DNA of 64,000 nucleotides from Chrysomallon squamiferum. Its lineage: Eukaryota > Animalia > Mollusca. Below, piece by piece: positions 8,801-63,174 of this stretch (positions within the stretch are counted from its first letter, which is position 1; each line of letters begins with the position of its first letter). The notes beneath the pieces were generated by a model, which saw only the letters and a program-made list of their open reading frames with translations, was not told the DNA's origin and searched no databases. Position numbers and translations under genes: made by a program. Location of the stretch: the NCBI GenBank assembly GCA_012295275.1, contig CM022670.1:40362001-40426000 (forward strand). Direction: 5' to 3'.

Positions 8801-8916
8801 ATTACAGTACTGAAGTAAAAATTATTGGCTGCAATTTCAAACGTAAGTATTAAAGTAATCAAGAGGCAATGGTCTCAGCTTCAGTTCTAAACTATTCAGA
8901 AACAACATAATACTAC

Positions 8917-8991
<75 letters not shown>

Positions 8992-14887: not shown

Positions 14888-24939
<10,052 letters not shown>

Positions 24940-26551
24940 ATTGGAGAAAAAAAATAAAAAGAAGAAAAAAATAAAAATCACAATGTATTTTACAGCTAGT
25001 ATCATAAAAAAGCTGGATGAAGCTTCAAGTCAGAAGTCACAACACAGTGATAATCATGTAATCTTCTAAAAAATGCTCCATGAACAATTCTTTGCTACGT
25101 TCAAGCTCTCTTTGGTGTTTGCTTTGTGCAAATTATCTATTATGTTTATTATATTGTTATTTATTGTTGTTACAGCACTTTATTAAAATGTTTAATACTG
25201 TATGGGTATTTTTTTATAAACTTCATATGAAAACAACTCATACAGAATGTTGGTTTAAAACAATAATTTAGTTCAAATTTTGTTCTGCCTGACAAAAAAC
25301 AGGGTTTTTCAGTACAAATATTTCAAATATTATATCTTCTCAGAACCTGTGACTAATAAAGTTTAATATTTTCTGAAAGCCAAGGAGAAACAGTCACACT
25401 GTTTAATGGAATAATTACAATTTGCCATGTATCATCTGTACGCTTATATTTGGTGCTAGAGGTAAAGATTTTTAAAGTATGCCTTGAGTGGTAACTTTTC
25501 ATTCATTTTAAACTCTACACAAATGTTTCCAAATTTAATTTATAAAAGAATAATTAGTTTGTTATAATTCAATATTGCATTATATTAAATCCAGAATGTT
25601 ATTTTTAGCTTTTCATGTTAGTTAACCATGTCCAGTTTGAGGTAACAATATTTATTTAAAAAAAAAAATTCTAGAAAATAAAAGTTATTTTACACTATAG
25701 ATTTGGTTATTTTGTTTGAAAGATAAACAATCAAACATAAAGGGTTAATGATATGACTGATAAAATGGCAGTCTTTTTATTTTTTGTTGTAATTATTGAG
25801 AAATGTTTGTTAATGATTTAATGGTGTGTAATTAGGTGTTAGGAGGATGAGTGAATTGACAGATTTAGCTCTGAAGTATAGAAAATAATAAAATACAGTC
25901 ATCTATTAAGCTGAGTAAAATGCCATTTATTCAGAAACTGACACAATAGACTAAATTCATACAACTAGTCTAATTCTTTTCATGGAAAACTAACTGTTCT
26001 TACAAAACCATTTGTACATCAAAACATTCAAATTTATGAAATGTAAAGATTAATAGATTTTTACAATATATGACATTCATTGTTAACATGCTGCAGTTAT
26101 TTATGCCCCACAGTTATCATGGTTTATAAGAAAATGTAGATTATATTTTTCAGAATAAAACTGAAGACTTTTAAACCTGCACTTCACTGAATTGCTCCCA
26201 CTAAGAAACTATACGTCAGTCTCAAATCTTAGGCAAACTAAGTCAGCAAAAATAACCACTTAGAAGATATTATGATCAACATAACAACAACAATAATAAT
26301 GTAACAGATATATTCAGCATGAAGCATATGTGAATAAAAAAAAATAAATAAATAAAAAAAAGAACAGAAATTTCATTGATGATATTTTAAGCACTGACAT
26401 AATTACTTTCAGCACAGAGTTGTGTCGAATGAAGCTAAAATGAAATGATTTTCACTATAAATAAATAGAATATGGTTGGCAAAATACAGAGTGGAGTCAT
26501 CTTGAATAGCTTCTCTCCTGAATCTTGCATGCACTTCAAACTGTTTAAGTC

Positions 26552-29500
26552 TTAGTCTGAGAGATCATTGAAACTGAAAAATGCTAATCTGGCCTCTTCA
26601 TTTCTTAGATTCTTCAGACTATATGGATTACCTAAAAAATAATAATATAAAATAAATAATGGCTGGTATATGATGCCTAAATTACAAAAAAATTCTACTG
26701 AGTATGAATTATGTTAAAAACAAGAAGGATGTGTAATTAAAATATTTTTATGGCACATTAATATAATAATAATAATAATAACAGAAATGAATAATAAACA
26801 AATTTTCCTATGAAAAAGATAACACTAAATACCAACATGTTCACATACACAAAACAAGTTGAAAACAGAACAATCAGATTAAGAAAACCAAATTTTAAAA
26901 TTAATTATACACACCTTTTGGTACAAAGAAATGATTTCCTGTTTCTACGATGCAAGTCCCTCGATGAATGGTGACAGAAATCTTTCCATATATTACACAG
27001 AAACACTAGAGGAAAAATATATGAGTGTACAAACACAGACAGACACACACACTGATAAAACATGAACACTAAATTAATAGTAATTAAAATATGCATGCAA
27101 AACACTATAATTACTGAAATTATACCAAGATAATCAAAAATGATTACTAATATTAAACAAAAATAAAAGTAATTTGATTACTTCTAGTAAATTTTTTATT
27201 AAATGTTTTATTTTTTTATTTTTCGTAATATAATATATAAAGGAAGTGAACACAAAAAATCATAATAATAATTTGTAATGAAATGAACATCAATGAAAAC
27301 AACAGTTACAAAAAAAAATAAAAAAATAAAATATATATATATAATAAAAAAAACAAAAAACAATAATAATAATAATAATAAAAAAAAAAAAATAACAACA
27401 ATAATAATGAAATGCTTACCAACATCTTGCTGGCTACAATTTGAGGTGGTTTCTCAGCCAGAGGAAAAAGAATCATGTTTCCAGAGTTTACTAACGACTG
27501 CAGTATAGCATGACTTATTTGGAAGGCAGGATTTTCTTTACCATCATCGTCATCATCATCGTTTGGAAACACAGTCTCAAAATTTTCATTCTTAGCAAAA
27601 CAGCCTGTAATTATATTTGTTCACACTTCATTACAAAAATGTATCTTGAGTATTATGCAAAAGAAAGTTTGTTACTATACATTTTTTGGTGTGTTTTTGT
27701 TTTGTTAGAAACACAGTCATGTTTATCATACAAACTGCAATAATGAATTAAAAAACAAAAATTATTCATTTTTAAAGTTATCAGATGTTTCAAAACAACT
27801 AAAACACTGATAAAGTTTTTTCGTAGCAAAAATAATTCATACCTAAATATGAAGTAGTTAATTTTGTATTTAATCAAAACAAAATCATAAATTCAAATTT
27901 TTTTCATTATAAACGTACGTAGCATCGTCTCTTTCTGACTGTCTGCGCTGATGACTGGAACCTCAGAGCCGCAGGTGAGGTCAAGGTCATCGGGAAGATT
28001 CACATGCACAGACAGGTTTACTGGGTGGAGCAGTCGACCTTTGGACAACCTTCGTAGACCTGCAAACAACCACAAAACCCTAAACATTCATTTCATTAAA
28101 CACGGGCAAACAGTAATTTGTCGTCTATCAACATGGTGAGATTTTAATTATAAAGAAACAGGATTTTGACACAACTTTATTTTCGTTAAAATCTTAAGTC
28201 CTGTTTTTTTTTTAAATTATTATTACTAACCTTTTGGTCTCTTTAACCTCCGAACTTTTTGTTTTTGTAGATACTTCTGTTCAAGTGATGGCTGTATGCC
28301 CATTACAACACACCCTGAGAAAACAAAATAAGTGTGGGTTTTTTCTCATAAAAATCTTCTCTCAAAGAACATCACATTTATTTTCTTCCAAATACAAAGC
28401 AAGCATAACTATTGTCTTAGAAACACTACTTTTTGATACATTTTTTTCTGTGATGATAAAAAATCCAACAAATCCATCCATTACTTCCAGTGGATCTGAT
28501 AAATCAAAAATCAGAGAAAGATTCGGTGTAACAAATAACTACTCTTTTCTGTGAATTCGTATTTTTAAATGATTGTTTCAACCACAAAATGTACAAATAG
28601 GAAATGTAATTACCAGATTTTCTCCTGTCGTAGATAACTCTCTCATTTTTGTACCATTCTAAAGTCTGAACTCTCGTTCTCTTTGACCTACGCAGGCCCT
28701 GCGGAGGGGATTTTGGAAAAACTGGAAAAAAAATAACATCCAAAAATAATGTTTTAAAATTATTAAATATGTATATATCTGTGGTGATTATATACTAAAA
28801 AGTTTTCCAAAGTTTTTTTAAAATTTTATATTAGCTTAGAAAGAAAAGAGTTCACAGAAAAAATTAAAATCCATGTCTTAATAGAAATGACTGCAACAAT
28901 TGGCTCAGTGCTGATTAAAACAGGTCTTAAAGAAAGAAAAAGAGATAAAGAGAGAGATAGAGACAGGGAAATGTATAAAAATGTTTGACATTATTAAATA
29001 TTTTGATAAATATAACATACTTATTTTAGCTTTCTTTGGTTCTTTAATACTTTGGGGAGTTGCAGATGTGGTGACTTCTGCAAAATGTACAATACTTTCA
29101 GTACAGGAGTCGTCCTTCTCTGGAGCTGAATTTGAGGAGACATTGTCTGAAATAATAAAACATCACTGAATGAAGTAGGACTTACTAATCATATCATATC
29201 AAAAAAATGTTACATAATGACATATAAGTATTTGGGTATGCAAGATTCTATAGTGATGTTAAAATATTTCAGGTGAGGTAAACCAAACTTTCATGTGAGT
29301 AACTTCGCCATGCAATTGTGTCTTTTTTAAAACTGAATCCATGTGTCTACAATATTTTGTTCACTTGTAATTTTTTCCTAAGAAACTCCTCAAGATATCT
29401 TTGGTATATGACACATTAACATGATTAAGTACTGACTTTTAATTTCTTTTTAATAAATTTAAAAAAGAAATTCGAGAGATTAGGAGAAAAATTAAAATAA

Positions 29501-31280
29501 AGCAAAATAATAAATCATAAAAATGTAAGAATAAAGACAAAATGCAATTAACAATGTTCACAATGAAAAAATATTTTGCTTCTTTATATATTAAAAAAAA
29601 GAAATGAGAAATACCTGTAGGAGGACTGAAGTTCTCCAGTGTTTTGTTTATTGTAACACGTCTGTTCCTCTTCTCTGTGGACATTACACTTCCTTCTTGT
29701 ACAAGACAAGATGTTAATCTTCTGTGCGGCAAAGTCTTCTTCACACTCTGCTTTTCTGTCAACACAAACAAATTTTTCTCTTAACAATCATGATGGATGT
29801 ATCATTTTCATTGTTTTGAAAGGAAAAAATCTGATTTTACTTGACACTAACGTCAGAACAAAAAAATAAAATAAAATAAAATTGGATAAAAAAAAAATAA
29901 AACACTATCACTACTTTTTTTTTTAAAATACCACTGCTGATTAAGGATAACTCTAGAAAATTAATGATCTAACCTTTTGTTTTTGAAGAATTTGGCAAAG
30001 TTGTTTGAGAAATGTGACGATCTGATATGCCACTTTGTGGCATCTCCAAAGGCATAGTCATTGCTTGTCGAATAGAATCATGAATACTCCCTGTAAAGAT
30101 ACACAAACACACAGCTGAACCAAAAACTAAGTCATTGTCAGATCATCTGAAAATCTAAATTTATATTTAAGTATCTGCATTCAAACACTCATATGCATAA
30201 AATTAGGAAAGAAAAGAAAGAGATATCAAAAAAGAAAATAATATTTATATATATAGATGTGATTCTGCCAATTTATCAATTCTAAATTTTAGATATTAAA
30301 AACTGATATTTAAATTTTTGAATTTAGAAGAAACAACAATGGAAACATATTAACTGGCTGACATTACAGACCCAGTGGATTTCTATTTTAAAAAAAAGCT
30401 GTTTTCCATTTCATGTTATTGTAAATTCTGTTTCATTTCCATTTCAATAATAAATTATGTAATCAAAAGCTAAAATATAAAATCATTTCTTATGTCCTTT
30501 GACTTTATCATGGTACTGAATGTGCTTTACTTGTAGTGTTTAGTGAAATATTTACACAATTGTAATTAAAACACAACCGATTCCTGTTGAAACAGTGATG
30601 TACAGACTGGCCATAAAGTGATACCATCACATAGGTTTGCATCGGTGTAATGAAAAGTAGGCATTAGATGTGAAAGGTGGCATGAGGGTCAAAGACCATA
30701 ATTAAAACAACTAACTGTAATAAAACACAGATTGACAACTAAGTAAACACAGTGGTTTATTAAAGGTTTTCAGGGCTGATGAAACTTCACTTAAACCATT
30801 TATTTTTCTCACTGCTTCTAACAGTCTAGCATCATCTGCAAGGTGAATTATCAAGTATCCCAACAGCGCAGAGCATTTGACATTAATAAATAAACTTACA
30901 AAAAGGAAAGATTAAAAAACAAGATAGTAAAATGGTAATTATTTTTTGACTTCGGTGAAAATTAAAATTCTGTTTCGAAATATGATTTCTGTTTCACTAC
31001 ATGATTCCATGAATTCTGTCCATTTACTGTGATCGCGGATAATTACTGGGTCCACACATTCAAAAAGATTATAATATATTATTCAGTTTATTGACTTACT
31101 TTCTGGCAATTGACAGGCTTCAGGATAATTTGGACTATCAAGAAAAGATGGTCTTGCATCTGTAAGAATAATAAGAATTATATAATTTTAAAAATCTGAA
31201 TCATTCTAGATGTTTTTAATTTTATAAAAAAAAATCAAAAATCAAGAAAACCTGAATAAAATGAATGTGATGTCAGTTTT

Positions 31281-31320
<40 letters not shown>

Positions 31321-33051
31321 CAAAGAATTATACATATTTTCATCTCAATAATGTACAGTTAAACAAAAAATTGAAGAGGTTGACAAACCTTTCTGTTTCC
31401 TAATATTTTTTTTCTTTTGTGATTTCTTGTTTGTATGTTTGGATTTTTGTTTCAAAGCCTCACCTCTGGTACTCTTATGTGCTGTGTCAGTTTTCTGAAC
31501 ATCACCACTAACACTATAATCCAAGGGTGACTTGCTCAGCTGGTGACTTCTGTTCCTTATCTCTCCAGTCTTTTCAAGACCTGGAGTCACATTCTTTTCT
31601 GATTTGGAGTATCTTCTTTTCCTCTTCTGAGGTTTGGCTATCTTCCCAGTAGATGGTGGACTTGTAACATCAGCACAAATATCATTTTTAGACAATTTCT
31701 CAGTTTCTGAACAACTATCTTGTTTATCATCTTTCTTTTTTGTAATTTTTTTGGATTTTTACCAGTAACGGCACTGACCGAATGTCTCTGATTGGACCCA
31801 GAAGAACTGGAATCTTTATGATGTTTATCTCCAGAACTGAAACGGATGTCACTATCTTGTTCATCATCATCATCAGTGGTTGCGTTTTTCGTTTTAGTTT
31901 CATCTTCTTCATTTTCAGCCAGTTCCTTGTTTTTCATTTTCTTTGATTTATTTTTAGATGTCTTATTTTTTTTCTTGCTCTTCTCCACACTGCTGGTTTC
32001 AGATTCTGAAGACTTTTTATTCTTAACGTTTTCTTTAGGTCTGACCTCGACAATTTCTGTACCACTTTTAGAATTTTTTCTTTTCACATTTGTTTCATCA
32101 TCTTGATTCTGTGATTTTATTTTAGTTTTAGTTTTATCACTCAAGGAATTACTTCTCTTTTTACTCTGCTTGGCTTTATTAGATTTACTTGTTTTGGTTT
32201 TCTTGACAGCAACAACATCACTGTCTGTTAACGAGAAATCGTCAATGTCGTCTTCTTCTGAAATCGGTACATGGCTGCTGTTTGCACTTTTATGTGACAG
32301 ACAGACGAACTCATTGCACTCTGCTTCAGATGAATTGAGAAAGTCACTTAACTTGTTTTTATTCTGAAGTGTTTTCCTGACAGTAAGAAAAAACAATTAA
32401 AATAAATCAATTAATTAATAAACCCCCTAAATAAACAACAACTCAAAAACCATATATATTAATAAATAAAAATAAAATATACTGTCATAACATATAATGG
32501 TATCAAAGATTAACATTAACATATCATTTTCCTATAACAGCTGTAGAAAAAAAGAGGAAATAGTCTATTAAACATGAAATGTTAAAAAATCTTCAGATGA
32601 GAGCAATGTTAAAAGAGGAAATTTGCAATTTGCAAGAGTAAGAAATACCTTCATGCCTAATTGAACTAATTCAACAATTAATAGTAAACAAGGAAATGTA
32701 ATCTTACTTGTTTTCATATTTCTTCTTCTTCTTTTGTAAACTTGTATCATGCACCAAAGAATAAGAAAGTCTGAAATAGATATACATAAAATATTAGTTT
32801 TATCTAACATTCATTCATTTTCATATTAATTCCAACCTGTTTTAATTTGAATTTTTCTGTTATTTTATCTAAATAATATAAAAACTGCTGCCAATTTTTA
32901 AAAATATCTCTTAATTAAATAATGTTTAAGAAAAAAAATAAAAAAAATAAAACAATGTACAAAACGTGTCACTAAAATATGGTCAGTGTCAGTTTTATAT
33001 GTAATTATGTTAAAAATATAAATAAGATGAACAGCACAGATTATATTATAT

Positions 33052-33095
<44 letters not shown>

Positions 33096-36000
33096 TTTTC
33101 CTTGTTTTGAAGCTCAGCATTGGTGTTGGATCAGTTAAATGTGAAATGGGATCTTCAGGTTTGGTTATTGATCCAGTCACATCACCTCCGATGTGAAGTT
33201 TAGAAACTGGAGAATCTGACTTGAATGTTGCTGTGTCTGAAACCAGTCTGTCAGGGTCTGCTTCATTCCCAGTGTCAGCTGCTCCAGCAGCCTCTGCTAC
33301 ATTCACACCTTCACCTTCACTCTCATCATTAACACCTTGCACAGACGCTGACGTAGATTTTTTAGAAATATTCCCGGTAGTGATATTTATGTTAACAACT
33401 GAGGCAGAAGATTTGGACCTCTTCCGAACAGCTTCATTAACAGATACACTGCCACGTTTAGAATCATTTTCTTTTTGCTGGGAAGATTTTCTGTTATTAT
33501 CATCCTGTTTCCTAACAGACTTTCTACCAGTCTTACTTTTCCCTTTCGTCAGATCACTTTCTGTATCATTTATAAGAAATACACTGCCATTATTAGAACT
33601 CTTTTCAGTTTCAGTTTCTTTCTGCTGGGAAGATTTTCTGTTATTATCAGTCTGTTTCCTAACAGACTTTCTACCAATCTTACTTCTCCCTATCGTCACA
33701 TCACTTTCTGTATCATTAATAAGAAATTCAGGAACAGAACATATGGTAGATTTCCTAGACACACCTCCTGCTTTTTTATTTTCCGTACCCCTTTTTTCTG
33801 ATAAAAGATTTTTTACCACATGTTCATTATTGTTTGTTTGAACTTTCTGATTTGTATCTGATTTGTTATCTTTCTTTGCAGACTTTTCTTTTGTTGTCTT
33901 TGTCAGTTCAGGAAGTTTTTCTTCTGCTGTTTTATTCATTCCCTTTTTGTCAGACATTTCCTTGTTTGTAACTTCATTATTATTTTTTTTTTTTAAAGAA
34001 TTTCCAGTCAAATCATTGCCTTCCTCATTGTTGATGCTTTCTCTCGAAGATTTTGTTTGAAGATTTTTCAGTGATCCTTTTTTTATGACAGATGCTCCAC
34101 TTTGATGAGATGATACCTGTGACAATTCAGAAGTTTTTTTAATCTTCGAACTCTTTTGCACTGACAACGAAGTTTTGTTGTAAGACGACACTTCATGATC
34201 TTGGTGTGATTGATTAAGATGTTTAATAGAATGCGAACTGTTTAAAGCTTTTTCTTTCTGGGCAGTGTTTTTTTCCACTGAGTTCAATGAGTTACTCTGT
34301 ACTGATTTATTAAGGAAGCTTCTTGTTAACATTCTACCACTGTTTGAAGACTGTAATGTTTTGTTTTTTATGCCAGATGTTTCTAATGTTTGTGAAAGAT
34401 GTTTTATCTGTCAAAAAAGAAAAACATAAATAAGACTATTACTGAGCATAATATCTTCACAGAGTCATGATTTAATTTAATAAATGTTTAAGAAGTAATA
34501 TAAAATAAAGAAATAATAATAATAATAATAAATGAAAACAATTTACATTATTTTTATGTTCTTAATACATTGTAATTCTTTTATTTTTGTGTTCTTATTT
34601 GGGGCATCTCTATATCACACATAAATCAACTATCTGACTATATATAGAGTTTAAAATGGCTTCTCTCCCCCTTTTCAGGAACCAACCATTTTAACATATC
34701 TAATTTCTGAATTTGTAGATAACATTGCTGTGCTTAAATAACAGATAACAAAATGTATTTAGTGTAACACTAATTACCTGTGATGTTTCTGAATCTGTAT
34801 TCTGTTCTGGTTGTGGTGGAACATGAGAAGATCTGGTTTCACTGTGGCATTCTCTAACAACATCCTCACTCTCAGGATGACCTGAATGTTCACTGTCATC
34901 ACCAGAAGAGGGAACAGTTTCAGTATCTACCTGTACATGTTTATTTTTTGATGTGTTGGTATCAGAATTTGCAGGTTCATGTCTCAGAGACAAAAAACAT
35001 TCTTGTCCACTTCTATTCACACTTACATTGGTTTTGTTTTTGTTCTTTTGGTTATCCAAACTGTTGACTGATCTGTCTTCAGTGTCTTCATCTCCTTCAC
35101 AACTGGATGAAACTTTTTCATGTCCTTGCTTGTACTGGATGTTTGAATTATCTACATCCTTCTTCTCATCACTGGCTGTTTTAGCTGTGTATGGGGCTTC
35201 CTGTTCACTTGCTGGGCCTGAGGCATATGCAACTCCTTCTTGCTCACTTGCTGGGCCTGAGGCATATGTAACTCCTTCTTGCTCACTTGCTGGGCCAGAA
35301 GCATATGTAACTCCTTCTTGCTCACTTGCTGTTCCTGAGGCACTTGAATCTTCTTCCTGCTCACTTGTCAGACCTGAAGCAGATGTCGTTTCTTCTTTCC
35401 CTCGTGTTGGGCCTGTGGCACCTGTGACCTCCTGTTCACTTCCTGTGCTTGACACATCAGTAGCTTTGTGCTCCTTTCTAACTCTGGAGACATCTGTGAT
35501 TTTCTCCTTTGTGTGTACCACATCGTCACTGACGTCTGGCTCAGGTGAACAGCTTGAGGAACACACGTTCTTGTTGCTATCTGAAGTGCTACAGCCTTCT
35601 GCTACACTGACTTGGTTGTTTATTGTAGATATCACATCTTCAGAACCCGACTGGATGGTTGAAAGACCACTCTCATCATCCCTTTTACGACTGACAGTGG
35701 GAATTTTATCTTCATCATCATCATCATCATCTGAGGGTAGGCGAAATGACAAAGAGATGTTAATTAAAAACAATTTACCAGTATTTTACAGAATCAAAAA
35801 AATGAAAGATCATTATTAATCAGTATTTGATAAAAAAAAATCCATTTAATTAAATATTGATAAATTTATATAAAGGCACATCTTAAAGGAATACACATAA
35901 AATCAGATTTAAACTGTCAGTTATTCATCAACATCACCAATCATAAACACATATATTTGGTCTTGGAACAATCTAATTATAAGTAATATATATGAAAGAT

Positions 36001-39000
36001 ATTAGAAACCACTGTAATGCTAACCACACTGTTCTTTATCTGTAGCACGTGACTCAGTCTCTTCAGTTTTTTCTGAGTGATCTGCTGACTCACTCCTGTA
36101 ATAGAAATAATTTCTAGAGGATATTTATATTTTAGGTATCAAAAGAATTATAGTCTTGAAACAGTTATGAAAATTTATTAAATAAAACAGTCCTTTTATC
36201 ATGAGTACAATTCTAAAAACAACTGATAATGAATGTTTGTAACATTTATTTTTATCCGATTAACTTACATTTTCTAAATATTATTCTTATTTTATTATGT
36301 ATATTCTCAACTGTATATGTATAAATTATAATAAAATTCACTACAGATATCACTTTTAGTAATTAAATAGAAAAAAGAAAGAAATTAAAAATAACTTACT
36401 CTGTCTGATCAGGATGTGAAATCTAATTTTGAAAAAAAAAAAAAAAATTTAATAATATAATATTTTAGAACAAATATTGGTATATGTACCAGTAATTTAT
36501 ATGATTAACACACATTTTACATTTTAAGTTAGGAATGATCATTCTCTTGTCAGTAAAAATGTTGCCAAAGAATCTCCTTAAAGATTTTTGTTGACAAAAA
36601 TATTTGAAACATGTAGAAGATGCAAGTCCTAAACAAACCCTTTCAGGCAAAGAATAATATTTGAAATCTTAAATTTAAACTGACAAGAAAAAATTAAATA
36701 ACACTAGAAACAATGAAGAATTGGAAGGCATACCTGTGGTATTAGGTCACTTCCTGTCTTGGTAACACAAAAACTTGACATGATACTGTCAGCTTCTGAA
36801 ATGGTTATTTCATACAAGTTATTTAATTGACGACATGAAGAAATGTTCAATAGTCTTTAATATTTTTTAATAATGTTATTTTTAAAAAAACATAGATGAT
36901 TCATTTTCTGAATAAATCACGTAAAAGAAATAAAATAATTAAATATATATATATATATAAAATTTTCATTAAAAGATCAGTTCTGTTTTAACAAACTGCA
37001 CAATTTAATATGCTATGTATTAAAATATGATTTGCTGATTATCAGCTGTACTATAGTTTCTTTTCTTTATTAATAAAATATTAAAATATTTTCACAAAAT
37101 GAAATGCCAAATGGAAAGTCTGTCTTGAATATGAAAGGTTTTTATATTTTTCAAAAGAAACATTTATTTAATAGAACAAAACTTTATTTATTTTATTTTA
37201 TTACCTGATGCTGACCAGTAATCATCAAAATTTTCAAAACCATCTTCAAATCGTCTGATATCTTTGCCAGATTTAACATCCTTTCCTGTTCGCCTTTAAA
37301 GAAATAAAATTATGTAAAAATTACGTAAATATGATAAAATATAATCTGAAACATCCAATCCAAAACATGTTCAAAAATAAAATTAAATAATTAAATAATT
37401 AAAAGATAAAAAACTCAAATTAAATAAACAAAGTTTTAATTTTGCTGTGTATACAGATCTTAGACTTCAGATTTTCTGTCAAATTTAAAAATGAAATTTT
37501 TACATAACATAAAGTGATCAGCAGAAAGCATTCTTTTACTTCATTATCCTGAAGAAACAAAAGTTCAATTTGAAAATTATAATCTTTTTTTTTTCTAACT
37601 ATGAAATTATCTAAATTAAAAATACTACCTTCCAATATGCTTTTTCTGGAAAGTATTATTTTTAGTTTTGCTCTGCAAAAGAAAAAAACAAAACAAAACA
37701 ACATTTAATTTTAAACATCACAGTAAAAACTTATTTACTGAAGTCTGTTTGCAATAGAAAAATCACCTCACTAACTAATGATAAATAATACACACAGTTT
37801 AAGCTGTATTAATAAATTATTCTGATTAAGATATACTTTATTTTAAGACATACAGAAAAGTCTTTTTTTCTACATCTTTATGTAATCAAGTGAAAAGTTA
37901 TGTGATGATCTCAAAATAAAGAAACATTTGTTACCACAATGCTGACTGACTGGCTAATACTGTGACATGTTGAGTTATCTCCTCCTGCAGCTATGTTACA
38001 GACAACGTTGTTGTTTTCTTTATTTCTCCCTTCTGATATGTCACATATTGAATCTACTTCTGCAAAATAAAAAAAAATGCTTAGTAAATAAATTTGACCA
38101 CATGAATACAAACAAATGTATCAAAGAACAAAGCATTTAATTGTATATCAAAAAATAAAAACATTTCCCACAACAAACAAATCAGGTGTGTTTGCTACAA
38201 TGGGAACTTAATTAATATTTAAAACAAACCTGATTCAGTCCAATAGTCATCAAAATTTTCATAGCCATCTTTAAATTTTCTAATCTTTTTTCCTTGCTTC
38301 ATGTCCTGACCTGTTCGACTGAAAAAGATAGTTTAGCACTTGAAAAATCTTCAGATAATATCAGAGATTTGTTTTAAAATAATCTTTTGAGTAGAGATAT
38401 TAAAATCCAAACCTATGCATACAAAATTTATTAGGAAATTAATAAAAAAACATAGGTAACAAGCTTCTTAATGTACTCAGTATTATATTATAATTAGGAT
38501 TTTAAAAAAAGGCAATTGCTGAACTGGTATTAATTGCTTATTTTAATAATTGCTGTTATGCTATCCCATTAAATTCTTTTGAGCAGATATCAGTTAGAAA
38601 TTTGTGAATACACAGCAACCAAATGTTTTTCAATATAATAAACAGTGGTTACTATAAATAATTCCTTTATTTTGAAGAAAAATGTTTTACTAGAAAGTGA
38701 TAAACTTTTTCATTCAGATTGAAAAATCATAAAAATTAAAAATATTACCGTCCAATATTCTTTTTCTTCTGGAAAGCATTATTCTTACTTTTACTCTGCA
38801 AAATAAAGAAAAACATAAGATTTAATTTTAAAAATCACAGCAAAATCCTATGTCATGCTATTTTTTAACCTTCCACAAGCAAATCACTTCCAAACTAATG
38901 ATAAATAATATGTATACATAAATATACGGTGTAAGATGTAGCAATATTAAAAAATTGTTTATTAATAACCTACAGATTGTTTTAAAACAAATTAAGAAGA

Positions 39001-40578
39001 AAACAAAATAATACAAAAAAATAAAAAACTTATAAATGTTTCGTATCTTTACATAATAAAGGAAAAAAGAAAGGAACATTTGTTACCACTAGGCTAGCTG
39101 TCTGGCCGATAGCGTGACTTGTCAAGTTCTCTCTTCCTCCAGCTGCATCACAGACAACATTGCTGTTTTCTTTAATTCTCACTGGATTTCTCCTAACTGA
39201 TATGTCACATATTGAATCTGCTTCTGCAATATAAAAAAAAAAAAAAAAATGCTTTAGTAAATAACTTTGACAACATAAGTATGAAGAATTACAGGAAATG
39301 TATGATAGTAAGAATTTCATATTAATATCACCAAGCACAAAACTCTTAATTGTGCACACATGCACACACACATGCACACACACACACACACACAAAAATA
39401 ATAATAATTAAATAACTATATAAATAAATAAAATTAAAATACAGGTGTGTTTGCTGTAATGGAAATTCAGTTAAGTATAAATATAATACTTTTTTAATAG
39501 TTATAACATTTAACACAAACCTGATTCTGTCCAGTAGTCATCAAAATTTTCATAACCATCTTTAAATTTTCTAATATTTTTCCCTTCCTTCACATCTATT
39601 CCTGTCCGACTGGAAAACAAATAAAAATAACAATTAAAAAAAGAAAGAAAATAAAATCCAAACATATGCAAAAAATGTATGAGACAACTTTAAGCATAAC
39701 ATAAATTACATATTTTTTAATGCCCAGTATTACAATTAGGTTATATTTATAATTGATAAAAATAACCTATTTCTGATATTAAATACACATTTTAATAACT
39801 CATTATCTGTGTTGTGTAACTGCTGATATACTCTCCCTCAAAGTTGAACTGACAGAATATCAGCCATAAATTTATGACTGGTGCAAAAATCCTCTATAAA
39901 GCATCAGAACTTACCGACCAATATGCTTGTTCCTCAAAAGTTTCACACTGGGTCTCGTGGTATTCTAAACGTAAATGAAAAATTATATTTAAATTTAGTA
40001 GACATTCGCTTTATTACAAACTACTGCTATAAACACTGACTGTAGCAGCTAACACTTCTATATTAACATTTTGCAACCTAGTTATTCCTAATAATTTTAA
40101 CGCAGATGGTATTTAATTCATAAAATGAAATCTCTGTCTGACATCAAATGTTGATTAAAATTTAAATACTGACACTGCTAATTACACAAATTTTTACTGT
40201 CATTAAGTAATTCGATAAAGTAACATTTTAAATAAGTTTTATAAATAAATATGATAATCATTTATCACAACACTGATTAGTTTACCCAAATAATCTGAAT
40301 TTAACTAGAAATATATTTAAAAATAAAAATAAATAAAAAATAATACGAAGGAGGTTACATCACAAAATAGGTCAACTAAATAAGTAAATTACAGATGAAG
40401 TAACTGATCACAGGGCGAAACAATAGAAGAAGCTTATAATTACAAATGCAAATGTTTTGTTATTATCTATTCATAATCATTAATCAACATAATCATAATC
40501 AGACGATAAATCATATCATAATTTTATTTTAAAATAATAATAATGATCATAACAATCGATTTACATACAGTTTACCAT
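26552..40578 (-). CDS. CENPC: Centromere protein C (CENP-C/Mif2), about 26 coding exons, about 1759 aa after repairing one frameshift
   Basis: Exons 40578-40576 (ATG only, least certain), 39964-39915, 39609-39521, 39223-39087, 38795-38749, 38318-38230, 38059-37935, 37672-37629, 37293-37205, 36795-36734, 36422-36400, 36095-36025, 35730-34778, 34407-33095, 32770-32708, 32376-31389, 31159-31100, 30090-29974, 29755-29615, 29146-29021, 28721-28614, 28314-28231, 28059-27919, 27604-27420, 27005-26915, 26631-26552. CENP-C motif GLRRSKRTRVQTLEWYKNERVIY; C-terminal cupin FCVIYGKISVTIHRGTCIVETGNHFFVPKGNPYSLKNLRNEEARLAF; Mif2-like N-terminal motif. Phases are consistent once one base is added at the T-run 31746-31752. 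Confidence 0.9.
30369..31052. mobile_element. Possible decayed non-autonomous DNA transposon (MITE-like) in a CENP-C intron
   Basis: Short inverted termini GACCCAGT (30369-30376) and ACTGGGTC (31045-31052), with related aattctgtttc sub-terminal motifs at both ends and a less AT-rich interior. No clear target-site duplication. Confidence 0.3.
33469..33726 (-). repeat. Coding internal duplication in CENP-C (37 aa, period 147 bp)
   Basis: FLINDTESDVTIGRSKIGRKSVRKQTDNNRKSSQQKE versus FLINDTESDLTKGKSKTGRKSVRKQDDNNRKSSQQKE. Confidence 0.9.
35196..35450 (-). repeat. Coding 39-bp (13-aa) tandem repeat in CENP-C, SEQEGVTYASGPA-like, about 6-7 units
   Basis: Units visible in the DNA (tgctcacttgctgggcctgaggcatatgtaactccttct) and in ORF 34700-35773. 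Confidence 0.9.
36734..39964 (-). repeat. Intragenic tandem triplication (about 1.1-1.3 kb units) of the CENP-C N-terminal three-exon module
   Basis: Three 89-nt exons encoding RTG.D.K.GK.IR.F.DG(Y/F)ENFDDYW. Flanking exons and intron segments are also homologous (caggtgtgtttgct near 39443 and 38182; aaaatccaaac.tatgca near 39653 and 38402). Confidence 0.92.
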
Positions 40579-41092
40579 TTTACATATTTAGTAAATCAAG
40601 TTTAAGAGATATTAAAGTAAACCTTTTTGTTCATGTCTGATGATTAAATCTTAAATAAATATCCATGTCATTAATAATATAAACATTTATTAATGTGATC
40701 ACAGTAAACTTTCAAGTTCTGCGCCATTTATGTAATTTCTTCCTATTTTTTCTAAATTCAATTTCATTGGTTGACGTCTTTCATACTACACCGCATACAC
40801 AAACATGCGATCGAACACGAGACTTGGACCTAAGAGATTTTATAATAATCTCAGAAATGCATTTTGTCCTTAAAACGCCATATATATTTTTAAAACATTA
40901 CATTCATGTATTTCGAAATCGAATGAATAATTAGTGCTTTATTATTTCATTTCAGGAATAAGGATTTAGTTGTTATTCTTTAAAGGGCCTTAATAATTAA
41001 TATTTGAATATCACATTTAGTACTACACAGACTTTACGTTTCAGCGGTGAAATCGAAAGACAGCTCTGTTAAATATTAAACTACAGTAACAA
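40579..41092. promoter_or_regulatory. Bidirectional promoter region of CENP-C (-) and HAUS3 (+), including the HAUS3 non-coding first exon (donor at 41093)
   Basis: Divergent genes with local CpG enrichment. GCGCCATTT (YY1-like, 40721-40729), ATTGG (40766-40770), TGACGTC (40772-40778), CHR-like TTTCGAAA (40911-40918) and TTTGAA (41003-41008). Confidence 0.55.
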
Positions 41093-41559
41093 GTATGTAA
41101 ATAATCATTGTTTTATGCCCTTTAATATATATTTCGCTTGTTCCTTATGCTTTTTTTCTTTCTTTCTTTTTAACTGTTGTAATCTGAAATTATTTCAGTA
41201 TCACAATAAATATCATGATGGTGAACTTGAATGAACTTTAACAGGTTGTAACACCTGTCAGTGTCACTACACCTTGCCTATTCTAGTGACTATGTCAGAA
41301 TGTGTACTAGAATCTAGACTAGTAGACTAGTAAAGATAACAGTCTAACATTCAAGTGAACAGCCTTTACAAGTCTGTTTTAATTCCTAGAATCTAGATGA
41401 CAGAAAACTCATGAAATTCTAAGTACTAGCTGGTCTTACTCAAGTTACTGTAATTGTACAGTTAGAAACTTAGATATTAATATTATATTTAAAAGATAGT
41501 ATGCAGTTTAACAATTTAAAACATTAAATTAATAAGTCTTCCATTTCTTTTTTTTCAGA

Positions 41560-44500
41560 ATGAGTGGTTCACAGTTTTTGCAAACTTTAAAACAACTGGG
41601 CTATCCTGAAGCTGATCATATCAAAGACAAAACATTTGATTGGATATTTGAAAATGAGGCTGTAGTACCATTTCTGAATTGGTTCTGCAGTAACATTTCC
41701 CAGCACAATGTTGTAGATTCAGATGCCTTAAAAGAGTAAGCTTTACTAGCTAAAAACAAAATTTCACATTCTTTGTAGCAGACGTTTGCTAAGAGGTAGT
41801 ACATTTGTCAGACATGATTCAGGATAAACTTTTGGTGAAATTCTGTTCTAACCTGTGCCTTAAAACTGTATCACAAGACTTTAATGTATACAGATGGAAT
41901 TAGTTTTGCCTTTTTAATGGTGGTTTCAATTTTCCTCTTTAATATCATACATCTCCAGATCTGTCAAGTAGTAATCTTTATTAACATTTTGATATGTCAT
42001 TTGAAATAGACTTGGAGTATTATGTTGTTTTCTTTATTTGTTTTTTTTAAGATTCCAAGAACATGAAGCAGGAGGTGGAGATACTGACAGTTCCTTAGAA
42101 AATTGTTGCAGGATCACAAGATGAAATTTTATCACCTGAAGCTCTTGAGTAATTTGATATTTATCACAGTGCACAAATATTAAATGTTTATGTGATAATA
42201 AAATAAATAATTCTTATGTCACTAAAAATTGTAATGTACATGAATAAATTTATATGTATCAAACTGCTTGTTACAAAATTGTTAAAACATTTAACACCAT
42301 GAGTGAGAGAATATTTTATACAAAATGACTGTAATTCTGTTTTTCGTAATTACTGATTTTTTATCATTTCATTCCAGAGCTGAAGTGTCAAGTCTGACAG
42401 AAAAATTAGAAAACTGTAAAAAGAAAAAACAACATCTTTTGCAACGTAGAAACAAAGTGAGGTATGTGTGTTTCAAACTAATTTTCTAAAAAGGTTTTAT
42501 TTTATTTTGTTATAGTCTTGTGAATTTTCTTTCTGAATGTTTAATTTTTAAAAGGTAAACTTAAACAGTTATAAAAATTGTTTTCATAAGATAAAACAGC
42601 TTTTTGGAAAAAAGCGAATATTTTTAATAAACTAATAGTTGAGTTCTTGCTTGAGTAGTGATAGTTCACAGTATCAATTCTCATTATGAGCAGTGATAGT
42701 TCACAGTATCAGTTCATATCACTAGCAGTGATAGTTCACAGTATCAGTTCTCATTACAAGCAGTGATAGTTCACAGTATCAGTTCCCATTACTAGTAGTG
42801 ATAGTTCACAGTATCAGTTCTCATTACTAGTAGTGATAGTTCACAGTATCAGTTCCCATTACTAGGGTGATAGTTCACAGTATCAGTTCCCATTACTAGG
42901 GTGATAGTTCACAGTATCAGTTCCCATTACTAGGGTGATAGTTCACAGTATCAGTTCCCATTACTAGGGTGATAGTTCACAGTATCAGTTCTCATTACTA
43001 GGGTGATAGTTCACAGTATCAGTTCTCATTACTAGGGTGATAGTTCACAGTATCAGTTCCCATTACTAGGGTGATAGTTCACAGTATCAGTTCTCATTAC
43101 TAGGGTGATAGTTCACAGTATCAGTTCCCATTACGAGGGTGATAGTTCACAGTATCAGTTCTCATTACTAGGGTGATAGTTCACAGTATCAGTTCTCATT
43201 ACGTGGGTGATAGTTCACATTATGAATAGTGATAGTTTACAGCATTGGATCCCATTATGGTTTTCCTCATTCCCATTATAACTAATACAAATCTAAATGC
43301 TTTTTTTTTTTGCTGTGGAAATTGAGTGTATGGCAATGAATTTCATTTTTATCCATTGCTGAATCACAAATTAACCTAATATAGAAATAATTTTCGCCTT
43401 TATTCAGTCAATTTTAATAAAAATAACTGTAGAAATACTCAAGAAATCTGTGTTTGATGTGATGTCTTTATAATGTTTAAGTTATACATCACACTTAATT
43501 TACTTTATTTACTTATTTATTTTCTTCATCAGTGTACATCAAACAGCTTTGAGTTACCGTCTGTCAAAAGTGCAGACACTTGAATCAGAAGTGAAAAAAC
43601 AGTTCAAAAAGAGACTGGATCACAGCCACGAAATGAACAGCGAGGTATAACTACGTTACTTTATATTATCTGCAGATTTATCAAAAATAGATACAGCTGT
43701 TGAATGTTTTTTTCAAAATTAGATCAAATTTAAGGATCATATTCCAAAATATATTGTCAAAGACAAAAAGAAAAATAACTGCTAATATTTCAGGCTGTTT
43801 ATCCTTCTGTTTAACCATTTTTATTTGTCATTTACTCAATGTTATTTAAAAAATTAGATATCCATGTTTTCATTTAATGTGTTCTTCATATTTCATTTGC
43901 TTCATAACTAAACTGTGTATTTTGATATCAAATGTTTGTGTAAAAATGTATGACAATATTAATACAAAGTTGTTTTTTTGTTATTTGGATATTTATTTGT
44001 AAAATTTGCTTTTAAATATATATTTTTAAAAAAAAGTCACCATGCATTATTTTCCTGCATTTTAAATTATTTTTACATGATTTATTTATTTATTTTTGTT
44101 TGTTTTTGTAGGTAAACAACAGCCTCAAGAACCTTACTCAAAGTGTGGATCAGCTGTATAAATTATATAGACAGCCTGAGTCTTCTGCCTCAGGCGAACA
44201 CAGTGACAACCTTGTCTTTCTCTCACAACTCAGTCTTGATGAGTATTTTACAGCAGAGGAAAAATTTGGTCAAACCTTAAATGACTTTACAAAGAAACGT
44301 TTCTTTCAGGTGAATTTATTAAGAGGACGTTAACGATTTAGAATTAAAACCAATTATTGATGTTCTAGTGGAAAGTTTCCACTGTTGGAAGATGTTAAAT
44401 ATTATCCATGTTTTGTAATGGGCTGAAAAGTAACATGGTTTGCTGTTTCTTATTATTAGTCAGAGTAACAAGATTAAAAATATTAATTAGCTTCTGTTTT

Positions 44501-53646: not shown

Positions 53647-56381
53647 TCAATACAGCGATTTCATTCCTTCATCTTCAAACACAGCCCACGCATCATTCAG
53701 TTCCATGAAGATCATTTTGGCTAACTTTTCATGAGGCGAGCCACTCAACTGAAAATACATTTGTTATTAATACGATGTTTTAGTCGAAAGGCATTACAAA
53801 TTATGTAAGGCAATAATCTCAATAGTATATTAATTATTATGATTAAAATGAGTTTCCTCAGACTTCAAATATTGATAACAAAAGTGACATACGAAACAAA
53901 ATCAGTTTAGGATATCAACGAGAGGTAATAATTTAATAAAATTAATACAGATACAAGATTCATTTACAGCACTCTTTGTCAGATTTTGATAAATAATTAA
54001 AAAATGACATATCAGTATTTTTCTTTGTTATTAAATTGGAACACTTTTCAGTCTGCTGTTAAAATCCCATCTTCAAATAGCTCTCAGTCTTTATAATCTA
54101 CATTTTACATACATGAGTGTATATACAAAATAAAAGACTTTTGCACTGCCTTCTATATAGATCCCGTTTTTAAATGACATTTTCAGATAACATCGTCAGT
54201 ATTTTTGCGATCTGATAACCTGGTTATTTAAAAAAAAATGATTCTCTTTCGACAGAAATCTCACCTTGTCTGGATGCACTGACAGAACAGCTTTCTTGTA
54301 GACTTTCTTCACTTGATCTGCGGTGACAAGCTCGTGCATCCCACACTGCTTCCATCTGTCTTCTCCCTCCCACAGAACTGTGTGCAGCGAACACAGCAGA
54401 GCTCGGATGTTCTTCTCCTTGCCTTGTATCCATTCCATCACCTTACAACAAAATAACAAACTGATACTTCGACACAGTACAATAACACACGTTGACCATA
54501 CCTTATCCAGAGTATCTTGGATCAGCAAGTGTCTACAAATTTTGAATTTTTTTTATTTATTTAGGTATATAAGGAGACAACCTAAGAATGGGATCCAACT
54601 CTAAATAATTTTATTCATATCCTATACACACAGGATGCAGACAATTTCTATGTAATATTTTAAGCAATTTAGTGATGAAATAAAGTGTTTGTGCACAAAA
54701 GCTTCTGAAAACTCTAAGATCCTCAACCTATGTATTTACAAAACTATGAACTGTAAAAGAAATTTTCATTTTCATTTTTCTGTACAGTTATGATCACCAG
54801 CAACAAATAGAAATACTGCAACAGATATAACAAGGAGGAATGATCCTCAAAAAAAATGCAACAATTATATTTAACCTAACATTTTAAAACAATTTTAAAA
54901 ATTAAAAATTAAATTATTATATGTTTTCTAAATTCAAAATGTACAGATACAGTAAAAAAAATGTATGAATTTTCTGATGGTGAAAAGTATCATTATATTT
55001 CAAGTTCAAAGATTATTTTAATTTAATAATGAGCCAGTTTTACCTTCAGTTTGTCAGGGTCCATTTCCTGGACCATCTGCTGTTTTCTCATGCTGGCTAT
55101 TGTCTTTGGTTCGTCCTTCTTGTTTGAAAACGTGTGGTTGCCAAGCAGATCTTCAAACGTGTTTTCATCCAGCTTTTGAGGTACTGGCCCTGAAAACATA
55201 TTATCATATTTTTAGCAACAACAACAACGCTGACAAAACTGATGACAAAATATTTATTACGATAATAATATTTATTATGATGATAATAATGAATGATGAT
55301 GATGTTAAAGCACACAACAACCACTCTAGGTCTAGGTTAATTTTTCAGTTTTATTGTATTCGCAACCAATCTCCTTTTCTACTTGAATGTTATACCCACA
55401 TGAATGATGTGGTATTAACGAGATTATATAATTATAGATTTTTAAACTTACCAAAACCTTTCCTGTTTCCGCGGTCATCTCGACCGCCGATGACACTGGG
55501 ACCGATGTTGTAGTTGGGTTTCTGGAACTGCTGTGGAGTTGGTTGTTTGTGAGGAGAGCCATGTGATGGTGAAGCTTGTGATGATCGAGGTGTCTGGAAA
55601 TTTGTCTGGGCTGAAAGTTAAACAAAAAAAAACAATAGCATTTTATTAATTATAAAGTCTTACAAAATTTTAATAAATAAGACTCACATATGTATGTATC
55701 TGAATGTGTAGTCAAAATTTATTAATGAACTGTTAGTAACTGCACTTGATTTATGTTAAAACTGTAATCTCTAATAATATAAAAAAAAAAAACAATTGTG
55801 GAGTATTTGTGTACTAGCTCTGATATCAACTCACTATTTTTGTTGTTGTATGAAATATAAAAATATTGATCTTACTGCAGACGTCACAAGTTTTATCAAT
55901 TTGATTTCGTTTATTTGTATAATTATTGGAATCACCATTCATATGGATGTATGTGTGTGTGTAAAATAGGTTGTTCTGTTTTGCAGTATTTCTTCTCTTA
56001 CCTGCTCCAAAAGGAGGCTGTGTTTTCTGTTGTGGAGGTTGTGGTTTTGTTCCTGAAAATTTTGAAGTGTTGAAATGACCACTGAAACTGCTGCTGCTTT
56101 TCATGCCAGCAAGCGTTCCTGCAACACAAAATTAAACACCTGTAAAATGCATTGTTACTTCATAACTAGACTTTAGAACCCAGCCTGTGTGGACAGATTA
56201 CTTATAAACATATTCTGTTCTGAATTAACTGAAAAAACACTTCTCAATCTTGTTTAGTACTGAATATGTATCAATAATACTAAAAACATTCTATAAAGAA
56301 GAAGATATTTAATTCTAAAAGACTTTCCTAAAGAGACTCTCTTTGCATGTATGGGTGTCTATATATACATCTAATTTGGTT

Positions 56382-56464
<83 letters not shown>

Positions 56465-62400: not shown

Positions 62401-63174
62401 GGATTTTGGTTACACATATCCATTTGTTTTTAACATGAAAAACTGTGAAATAAAAAAAAATAAAAAGATTATTGTAACTTACCCGGTTTTCAAATTTACT
62501 TGACTTATATGACCTCTGTGATAAATTGTACACAGCATAGCAGTTGTGATGTCGAGATTCAAGATAGGCTCTCACATCATCAATGTGATTCTTCACAGCA
62601 GATTCTACACCTTCAGCAGGGAATGACATTACTGAAAGAAAATAAATTGTTGCTCTATAGCTAATTTGTTAAATAAATTGTTGCTCTATAGCTAATTTGT
62701 TAAATAAATTGTTGCTCTATAGCTAATTTGTGAAATAAATTGTTGCTCTATAGCTAATTTGTTAAATAAATTGTTGCTCTACAGCTAATTTGTAAATAAA
62801 TTGTTGCTCTATAGCTAATTTGTAAATAAATTGTTGCTCTATAGCTAATTTGTTAAACAAATTTCAATTCTCCCATTATTATTAATGAATCTGTTTTGAC
62901 AAATATTTGTTTTTTAACCAGTGAAAGTCCTGTATTTACATATCTGAATCAATTCTGGTTTTTTCTCTATCAAGTACGTGATACCTAAAATGTGACTAGA
63001 TAGTAATGAAATAAAAACACACAGTTTAGTCAAGAAAAACAATACTTTTAATAGATTTTTAAATTTTATTACAGAGAAAGGAAACAAACCTAATATATTT
63101 ACATATAAATGAAATACTTACTTGCAATTCTTGTGGTAATATATGAGAAATCCAAATCAGTTTTGTTGATTGTC
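53647..63174 (-). CDS. GAK: Cyclin-G-associated kinase / auxilin, 3' part (PTEN-like, C2, clathrin-binding and J domains); any kinase exons would lie beyond the window
   Basis: Exons 63174-63122, 62631-62483, 62048-61926, 60697-60564, 60140-60027, 59571-59491, 59109-58992, 58562-58483, 58178-57985, 57633-56551, 56118-56002, 55610-55452, 55189-55044, 54441-54265, 53748-53647. [23 protein letters not shown]; P-loop VHCLDGKAHS; several DLL and DPF motifs; J domain [14 protein letters not shown]...VHPDK...[12 protein letters not shown]. Confidence 0.94.
57182..57217 (-). repeat. Coding CAG/CAA repeat encoding Q12 in the GAK clathrin-binding region
   Basis: (ctg/ttg)12 on the + strand; HVHQ12PVDLL in ORF 56504-57682. 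Confidence 0.95.
62640..62854. repeat. 30-31 bp tandem repeat AAATAAATTGTTGCTCTATAGCTAATTTGT(T) x7 abutting a GAK splice acceptor
   Basis: Seven near-identical units ending a few bases from the acceptor AG at 62633-62632. Confidence 0.96.

What the first reader, a model, noticed from the sequence alone, without database searches (positions are those of the whole stretch)
36734..39964. CENP-C with three tandem copies of the N-terminal MIS12/MIND-binding module
Seen: three intact three-exon modules encoding KHIGRRTGIDVKEGKNIRKFKDGYENFDDYWTESEADS, KNIGRRTGQDMKQGKKIRKFKDGYENFDDYWTESEVDS and KHIGRRTGKDVKSGKDIRRFEDGFENFDDYWSASEADS. Each central exon is exactly 89 nt, all splice sites are intact, and each module starts and ends in phase 0. 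Established: this resembles the budding-yeast Mif2 N-terminus (recalled as RKTGIDVKQDIPKDEYSMENIDDFF), which binds the Mtw1/MIS12 complex, and CENP-C normally has one such site. Inference: one CENP-C chain could recruit up to three MIS12-NDC80 units (six per cupin dimer), amplifying the CENP-C pathway. Frame-neutral skipping of whole modules could tune kinetochore valency between tissues or between mitosis and meiosis. Protein motif conservation despite intron divergence suggests selection.
Basis: partly seen in the sequence, partly recalled or inferred. Interest (0 to 1): 0.88.

Follow-up and report, generated by a model that had tools for sequence, protein, structure and literature searches.

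The report
Snail CENP-C with three MIS12-docking motifs
This mollusc's centromere protein CENP-C carries three spliced-in copies of a docking motif that humans and yeasts have once, and all snail and bivalve versions retrieved have two or three, so one CENP-C likely recruits several spindle-attachment complexes instead of one.

Summary
The minus-strand gene is a CENP-C orthologue whose N-terminus holds three ~40-residue motifs, each spread over three exons. All three match a fungal Mif2 N-terminal profile. The only PDB hit of a metazoan motif profile is the MIND-bound K. lactis Mif2 peptide (weak, E 0.11). dN/dS among copies is 0.14-0.17. One RNA contig fits an mRNA with all three modules, and DNA contigs tile most of the array. 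The finding is not peculiar to this genome: 30 of 30 gastropod and bivalve CENP-Cs retrieved have two or three copies, and Capitella and three spiders have two. Echinoderms, scorpions, octopus and fungi have one. This snail's third copy came from a tandem duplication of the first module. No support was found for tuning by exon skipping. Best reading (inferred, binding untested): each motif docks one MIS12 complex, which makes CENP-C a multivalent outer-kinetochore receptor. Avidity for a single complex is the main rival. Ten literature searches found no description of repeated MIS12-binding motifs in CENP-C.

The parts
40623..40634 (-). probable start exon (ATG, 4 codons)
   Evidence: same first four residues as Gigantopelta CENP-C P0001; GT donor, phase 0; not seen in RNA
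39915..39964 (-). exon a1: basic lead-in of motif 1
   Evidence: a1|b1 junction is the RNA loose end, checked
39521..39609 (-). exon b1 (89 nt): core of Mif2_N-like motif 1
   Evidence: fungal profile 30.5 bits
39087..39223 (-). exon c1: acidic end of motif 1 plus linker
   Evidence: spliced to a2 in RNA runs X8 and X9
38749..38795 (-). exon a2: lead-in of motif 2
38230..38318 (-). exon b2 (89 nt): core of motif 2
   Evidence: fungal profile 23.7 bits; 3 of 3 DNA variants synonymous
37935..38059 (-). exon c2: end of motif 2 plus linker
37629..37672 (-). exon a3: lead-in of motif 3
   Evidence: in RNA inferred from the 86-letter gap after c2
37205..37293 (-). exon b3 (89 nt): core of motif 3, orthologous to Gigantopelta copy 2
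   Evidence: fungal profile 21.8 bits
36734..36795 (-). exon c3: end of motif 3
   Evidence: its first 30 nt equal the RNA loose end
29021..36422 (-). middle exons d-m: long low-complexity region; one-base frame break in the 988-nt exon 32376-31389
28614..28721 (-). exon with the single CENP-C motif (RRSxR...W...Y; pattern recalled)
   Evidence: 80% identical to Gigantopelta residues 1837-1877
26551..27604 (-). cupin exons and stop codon
   Evidence: Pfam CENP-C_C E 2.3e-5 on exon 27005-26904; 61-90% identity to the Gigantopelta cupin

Best explanation
This is a CENP-C gene whose N-terminus carries three spliced, purifying-selected copies of the Mif2-type motif, and each copy likely docks one MIS12 complex, so that one CENP-C chain would recruit up to three KMN (KNL1-MIS12-NDC80) units. 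Shown: gene identity, exon structure, inclusion of all three modules in one RNA contig, homology to the fungal MIND-binding segment, motif spacing of 91 and 86 residues, and origin of the third copy by tandem duplication of a b-c-a exon block from the first module. Predicted: in a two-copy relative the motifs are separate short modules joined by a disordered linker. Inferred: simultaneous binding of several MIS12 complexes; up to six per cupin dimer; a switch at the RRTG threonine of each copy, equivalent to the Aurora B site Thr28 of fission-yeast Cnp3; and a functional gain like CENP-T's multivalency for NDC80.
For: Homology: Pfam Mif2_N matches 4 of 20 aligned metazoan copies, best E 1.5e-5. 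The sole PDB hit of that profile among 177,635 sequences is 5T59 chain C, E 0.11; 5T59 is the K. lactis Mif2 N-terminus bound to the MIS12 head (10.1101/2025.06.03.657598, passages). A profile of 30 fungal Mif2 N-termini scores the three copies 30.5, 23.7 and 21.8 bits; the best of 2000 shuffles scores 7.8. Selection: dN/dS 0.14, 0.17, 0.15; 3 of 3 variants in motif exon b2 are synonymous, 7 of 8 in linker exons c1/c2 change a residue. Co-expression: RNA contig X8/17 fits a1-b1-c1-a2-b2-c2-a3-b3-c3-d-e-f. Retention: 14 of 14 gastropod and 16 of 16 bivalve proteins have 2-3 copies; spacing between copies 70-129 residues, median 104, n=41. AlphaFold2 of a two-copy N-terminus gives local order only in the motifs (block pLDDT up to 78-80), linker under 50, pTM 0.23. 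All three copies keep RRTG, the counterpart of Cnp3 RKTG/Thr28, whose phosphorylation weakens Mis12 binding (PMC5740674, passages). NDC80 multivalency raises microtubule residence exponentially (PMC5940359, abstract).
Against: The window's single b exons did not hit Pfam Mif2_N (0 of 3), and 16 of 20 aligned copies did not either, including the Gigantopelta row. The PDB hit is weak and no human CENP-C chain was hit. Several copies are degenerate in heterobranch snails and scallops: 16 of 99 score 15 bits or less on the fungal profile. 27 of 100 copies lack the R/K-x-T/S-G site. Octopus keeps one copy, so molluscs do not need more. Whether molluscs have CENP-T was not determined.
Confidence: 0.55

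Rival explanations
1. The repeats raise avidity or on-rate for one MIS12 complex at a time. They would outcompete the Dsn1 auto-inhibitory segment or buffer Aurora B phosphorylation of single copies, without raising KMN stoichiometry.
For: Mif2 1-38 did not bind auto-inhibited yeast MIS12 complex and bound the activated form at about 1 uM (10.1101/2025.06.03.657598, passages); the Cnp3 peptide binds weakly (PMC5740674, passages). A weak yeast-type motif would gain from repetition. Same selection and expression data as the best reading.
Against: Linkers of 45-50 residues here, and spacing never under 70 residues in 41 intervals, leave room for separate heads (inference). Human CENP-C binds MIS12C 1:1 through one head (PMC5740674), so extra motifs have no second site on the same complex.
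Confidence: 0.22
2. The copies are specialised. First and last copies bind different partners, different MIS12C paralogues or different phospho-states (for example mitotic against meiotic), so valency for one partner is not tripled.
For: Copy 1 and copy 2 form separate, supported clades within scallops, venerid/myid clams, Haliotis and caenogastropods. Some first copies lack the R/K-x-T site while the second keeps it (scallops, Saccostrea, Mytilus).
Against: In unionids, Magallana, Oedothorax and Capitella the two copies of one species group together, and in this genome copy 2 derives from copy 1. That looks like turnover of interchangeable units.
Confidence: 0.1
3. Near-neutral redundancy: a frame-symmetric three-exon block duplicates easily, only one copy matters at a time, and extras persist for a while.
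For: The unit is frame-neutral. Duplications recur independently. Degenerate copies exist (Elysia copy 3, Aplysia copy 2). Grass CENPC shows recurrent exon duplication and deletion (PMC549713, passages).
Against: dN/dS about 0.15 in all three pairs at dS 0.6-1.5; synonymous-only variation in the extra copy's core exon; 30 of 30 gastropods and bivalves keep at least two.
Confidence: 0.08
4. Isoform switch: whole modules are skipped in some tissues or in meiosis to tune valency.
For: Skipping any a-b-c or b-c-a block keeps the frame. One Lineus isoform model lacks that species' single motif.
Against: RNA contig X8/17 includes all modules and no skip joint was listed among the exons laid. 8 of 9 Mytilus models have three copies (the ninth is a split model with none); no Haliotis, Mya, Biomphalaria, Aplysia or Pecten isoform has an intermediate number. 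Contigs drop rare forms, and only two RNA runs of one study were seen.
Confidence: 0.04
5. Assembly artefact (false duplication of allelic copies).
For: None found. DNA run X1 may be the sample that the window came from, and DNA run X2 gave no usable cover of the stretch laid.
Against: Copies differ by 15-27% in the b exon. X1 contigs overlap continuously from within intron a3/c2 to c1 at even depth, and an RNA contig from a second study carries all three modules. No 25-mer or 31-mer is shared between modules in the mRNA.
Confidence: 0.01

Closest known systems
Fungal Mif2/Cnp3 N-terminal MIND/Mis12C-binding segment (Pfam PF15624 Mif2_N; PDB 5T59)
   Same: Same motif layout (G-R/K-R/K-T-G, K..I/V.K, D-G.E/D-N-F/I-D-D-Y/F-W, acidic tail), same N-terminal position on a cupin-ended protein; same Aurora B consensus threonine.
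   Different: One copy in 32 of 32 Mortierellaceae proteins; here three, with a two-residue insertion in the motif core.
Human CENP-C residues 6-48 bound to MIS12:PMF1 (PDB 5LSK)
   Same: Same protein family and presumed role; one KMN recruited per CENP-C N-terminus (10.1101/2020.12.01.407130, passages; PMC11189301, passages).
   Different: No sequence match of the mollusc motif to human CENP-C chains in the PDB. Human CENP-C has one such site and two nucleosome-binding motifs; this gene has three N-terminal motifs and one CENP-C motif.
CENP-T as multivalent outer-kinetochore receptor
   Same: One disordered N-terminal arm carrying several docking motifs; human CENP-T adds one KMN and two further NDC80 complexes.
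   Different: CENP-T motifs bind NDC80 directly and depend on CDK1; here identical-type MIS12C motifs are repeated on CENP-C. Works like it by inference; not homologous.
Recurrent tandem exon duplications in grass CENPC (exons 9-10, 11-12)
   Same: Repeated, independent tandem exon duplication within CENP-C, including a triplication in rice (PMC549713, passages).
   Different: The grass repeats lie in the middle, putatively DNA-binding region and evolve adaptively; these are N-terminal MIS12C-type motifs under purifying selection.
Gigantopelta aegis CENP-C (XP_041357774.1) and Mytilus/Tegillarca CENP-C
   Same: Gigantopelta is the closest retrieved orthologue (motif 1 core 93% identical); Mytilus and Tegillarca also have three copies.
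   Different: Gigantopelta has two copies. The Mytilus third copy arose separately, from the last module. None of the source names seen mentions the repeat.

Membership tests
CENP-C/Mif2 | C-terminal CENP-C cupin domain | tested here: met
   One exon alone hits PF11699 at E 2.3e-5, 25 bits, under the 29-bit cut-off because it is 34 residues; the orthologue P0001 scores 60.7 bits and its cupin is 61-90% identical to the window's exons
CENP-C/Mif2 | CENP-C motif (RRSxR...W...Y) before the cupin | tested here: met
   Exon 28721-28614; pattern recalled; shared with relatives named centromere protein C
CENP-C/Mif2 | Intact reading frame | tested here: inconclusive
CENP-C/Mif2 | Centromere localisation and cupin dimerisation | not testable with these tools
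   Needs cell biology or biochemistry
Mif2_N MIS12C-binding motif | Sequence homology of each copy to fungal Mif2 N-termini | tested here: met
   30.5, 23.7, 21.8 bits against a shuffle maximum of 7.8; the fungal set was seeded from a hit of the metazoan profile, so it is the most similar fungal family
Mif2_N MIS12C-binding motif | Match to Pfam PF15624 | tested here: inconclusive
   0 of 3 single b exons; 4 of 20 homologous copies, best E 1.5e-5
Mif2_N MIS12C-binding motif | Aurora B consensus R/K-x-T at the MIS12 contact (Cnp3 Thr28, K. lactis Mif2 Thr13) | tested here: met
   RRTG in 3 of 3 copies; aligned to 5T59_C residues 11-14; 73 of 100 copies overall
Mif2_N MIS12C-binding motif | Physical binding to the MIS12:NNF1/PMF1 head | not testable with these tools
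Folded tandem-repeat domain | Repeats pack into one stable fold | tested here: not met
   pTM 0.23, mean pLDDT 57 for the Nucella two-copy N-terminus; no Foldseek match at E 0.001 or better

The most novel reading that the evidence does not exclude
Gastropods and bivalves, and separately some annelids and spiders, have turned CENP-C into a multivalent KMN receptor by repeated duplication of its MIS12-docking module. Each chain loads two or three KMN units, each with its own Aurora B switch. This would be a kinetochore linker strategy outside the known CENP-C/CENP-T/CENP-U scheme and might stand in for a weak or lost CENP-T pathway.
Probability: 0.4. Interest if true: 0.8.

Novelty: new variant of a known kind. 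Interest (0 to 1): 0.6.

Why it matters
Models built on human and yeast kinetochores assume one MIS12 complex per CENP-C chain, with CENP-T supplying the extra NDC80. If these repeats all bind, the largest mollusc classes set outer-kinetochore number through CENP-C itself. A natural series of one (octopus, urchin), two (abalone, oyster) and three copies (mussel, this snail) makes it directly testable how KMN valency and multi-site Aurora B control affect attachment strength. The motif is also a clean marker for invertebrate CENP-C genes, many of which carry unrelated names in the databases.

Tried and rejected
No whole genome is held, so CENP-T, MIS12C paralogues and a second CENP-C copy could not be sought. 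Word-indexed search with the single b1 exon found nothing; the ESM Atlas gave no usable hit. The three-sequence profile gave only chance PDB hits. Pfam on single exons gave no Mif2_N. Foldseek of the low-confidence model gave nothing. WD40-type repeats matching profile positions 6-17 (for example P0005, seen) were rejected as chance. The Logan members of the Mytilus cluster (P0098-P0103) are mid-gene single-exon ORFs, not transcript evidence. DNA run X2 covered only repeats in the stretch laid, which is no evidence either way. No complex prediction was sent, for want of partner sequences. Three look-ups of earlier scan findings returned nothing. The deep forks of the motif tree are unresolved, so whether the gastropod and bivalve two-copy state has one origin was not settled.
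Full report
What is there. The region is an AT-rich animal gene on the minus strand. Nine small exons between 39964 and 36734 have AG/GT borders and phases 0-2, 2-1, 1-0, repeated three times, and splice into one open frame. The three central exons are 89 nt each and 73-85% identical, far above shuffles. The gene runs on through long low-complexity exons to one CENP-C motif (28721-28614) and a cupin. One cupin exon hits Pfam CENP-C_C at E 2.3e-5. The model has 26 coding exons and about 1762 codons, with a probable start at 40634 and a one-base frame break in exon 32376-31389. Both sides of the break align to the closest orthologue, so an A-run assembly error is likely, but this was not tested. 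The closest retrieved protein is from the vent snail Gigantopelta aegis, so the window is probably from a related gastropod; the species was not determined.

Is it real and expressed? Reads were laid on exons c1 to c2 and their introns. Contigs of DNA run X1 overlap continuously across that stretch at even depth; X1 may be the source sample. DNA run X2 gave no usable cover. RNA run X8 (a second study) has one 856-nt contig with joints c1-a2, a2-b2 and b2-c2. It also has a piece of b1 laid on b2 with the 6 expected differences, an 86-letter gap after c2, and loose ends. These fit the predicted mRNA a1-b1-c1-a2-b2-c2-a3-b3-c3-d-e-f position for position, and the two loose ends equal the a1|b1 junction and the start of c3. 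One oddity: the b3 piece laid on b2 is listed with 0 differences where 8 are expected. An exact 47-nt repeat should not survive inside one k-mer contig, so I take this as a counting quirk. RNA run X9 gives b1-c1-a2. No skip joint appeared, but contigs hide rare forms and both RNA runs come from one study.

What the repeat is. A profile of the three b exons found 89 proteins at E 0.001 or better among 1.84 billion representatives. The true hits are CENP-C N-termini; 13 of 18 proteins scanned had the CENP-C cupin (four of the other five are fragments, and the Lineus model lacks the hit). A 20-sequence motif alignment gave three links to fungi. Pfam Mif2_N matched 4 of 20 members, best E 1.5e-5. 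The only PDB hit was 5T59 chain C at E 0.11, which is the K. lactis Mif2 peptide bound to the MIS12 head (10.1101/2025.06.03.657598, passages). A Mortierella Mif2 appeared at E 0.077. In reverse, a profile of 30 of 31 Mortierellaceae N-termini scored the window's copies 30.5, 23.7 and 21.8 bits, against a maximum of 7.8 in 2000 shuffles. Against this: single exons missed Pfam Mif2_N, and no human CENP-C chain was hit. The RRTG of each copy aligns with RKTG of yeast proteins; in fission yeast that threonine (Thr28) is an Aurora B site whose phosphorylation weakens Mis12 binding about eightfold (PMC5740674, abstract and passages). AlphaFold2 on the two-copy Nucella N-terminus shows local order only within the motifs and no joint fold.

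Selection. Nei-Gojobori dN/dS over the 38-codon cores is 0.14, 0.17 and 0.15, at dS 0.59-1.53 (few sites). Of 11 exonic variants seen in the laid runs, 3 of 3 in motif exon b2 are synonymous and 7 of 8 in linker exons change a residue (two RNA differences that come from b1 laid on b2 were left out).

How widespread. I counted copies in 58 of the 152 proteins then held, dropping single-exon fragments, most isoforms and WD40-type chance hits (group labels from my own knowledge of the species names). Gastropods: 13 of 14 have two, and Elysia has three (the third weak). Bivalves: 13 of 16 have two; two Mytilus species and Tegillarca have three. Spiders: 3 of 5 have two. Annelids: Capitella two, Lamellibrachia one. 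One copy in 8 of 8 echinoderms, 2 of 2 scorpions, octopus, Lingula (partial), Lineus and Saccoglossus, and in 32 of 32 fungal proteins. Spacing between copies is 70-129 residues, median 104 (41 intervals). No annotated mollusc isoform retrieved has an intermediate number. The sample is what two searches returned; vertebrates, insects, chitons and squids did not appear.

History. A tree of 86 of 100 motif copies (congeners and two doubtful fragments dropped; 53 columns; bootstrap not converged) groups window copies 1 and 2 with Gigantopelta copy 1 (100/99) and copy 3 with Gigantopelta copy 2 (96/90). Introns agree: those of modules 1 and 2 are still alike (z 6-12); those involving module 3 mostly are not. 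Self-alignment and the closeness of a2 to a3 show the duplicated block was b-c-a, about 1.1-1.3 kb. Separate duplications or homogenisations are supported in Mytilus, unionids, Elysia and Oedothorax, and weakly in Capitella. Whether the mollusc two-copy state arose once is unresolved.

Mechanism. Shown: identity, structure, co-splicing, homology, selection, distribution. Known: the homologous segment binds the MIS12 head 1:1; human CENP-C recruits one KMN per chain while CENP-T adds more (10.1101/2020.12.01.407130, passages); NDC80 multivalency strengthens microtubule coupling (PMC5940359, abstract). Inferred: each motif docks its own MIS12 complex, up to three per chain and six per dimer, each under an Aurora B switch (0.55). 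Rivals: avidity for one complex (0.22), specialised copies (0.10), near-neutral redundancy (0.08), isoform tuning (0.04), artefact (0.01).

Novelty. Ten full-text searches listed no paper describing repeated MIS12C-binding motifs in CENP-C; six were aimed at that question. I read passages of PMC9252888, 10.1101/2025.11.28.691167, PMC11189301, PMC549713 and PMC12724597, and saw the others as listings only; no supplements were opened. The library lacks most subscription papers, and supplementary alignments of kinetochore evolution papers could show the repeat. The nearest precedent seen is tandem exon duplication in the middle of grass CENPC. Verdict: real, a new variant of a known protein, broader than this genome, function inferred. 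Interest 0.6.

Noticed in passing
window 31735-31760 (minus strand, exon 32376-31389): One-base frame break in an A-rich run; both frames align to the Gigantopelta orthologue, so probably a homopolymer assembly error. If real, it would cut off the CENP-C motif and cupin.
   Followed up: partly
window 40634-41560: CENP-C lies head-to-head with a HAUS3 (augmin subunit 3) gene, start codons about 0.93 kb apart (Pfam HAUS-augmin3 E 2.3e-6): two mitotic genes that may share a bidirectional promoter.
   Followed up: partly
window 33457-33730: A 147-nt (49-residue) internal duplication in the 1313-nt exon. Each copy has an F-L-I-N-D acidic-hydrophobic motif that recalls the human CENP-LN-binding segment (recalled); the exact pattern was in none of 58 relatives.
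   Followed up: partly
window 32708-33190: Two short conserved motifs in the disordered middle (I/V-T-G-S-I/L and S-F-x-T-x-K-R-L), matched in 15 and 14 of 59 proteins; candidate CCAN-binding sites.
   Followed up: partly
window 35158-35428: Coding tandem repeat of 39 nt (13 residues), five copies, in the 953-nt exon.
   Followed up: no
window 42619-43325: 34-35-nt minisatellite array in a HAUS3 intron.
   Followed up: no
window 4000-9200 (-), 10998-11291 (+), 14888-17370 (+), 54000-64000 (-): Neighbouring exons look like OGFOD1, LSM2, a calcyphosin-like EF-hand protein and GAK/auxilin (names recalled from translations; not searched).
   Followed up: no
proteins P0001, P0012, P0021, P0123, P0133, P0140: Many invertebrate CENP-C orthologues carry unrelated database names (serine-rich adhesin, RIF1-like, ankyrin repeat, jockey polymerase).
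   Followed up: yes
protein P0109: One Lineus isoform model lacks the species' single N-terminal motif while two others have it.
   Followed up: no
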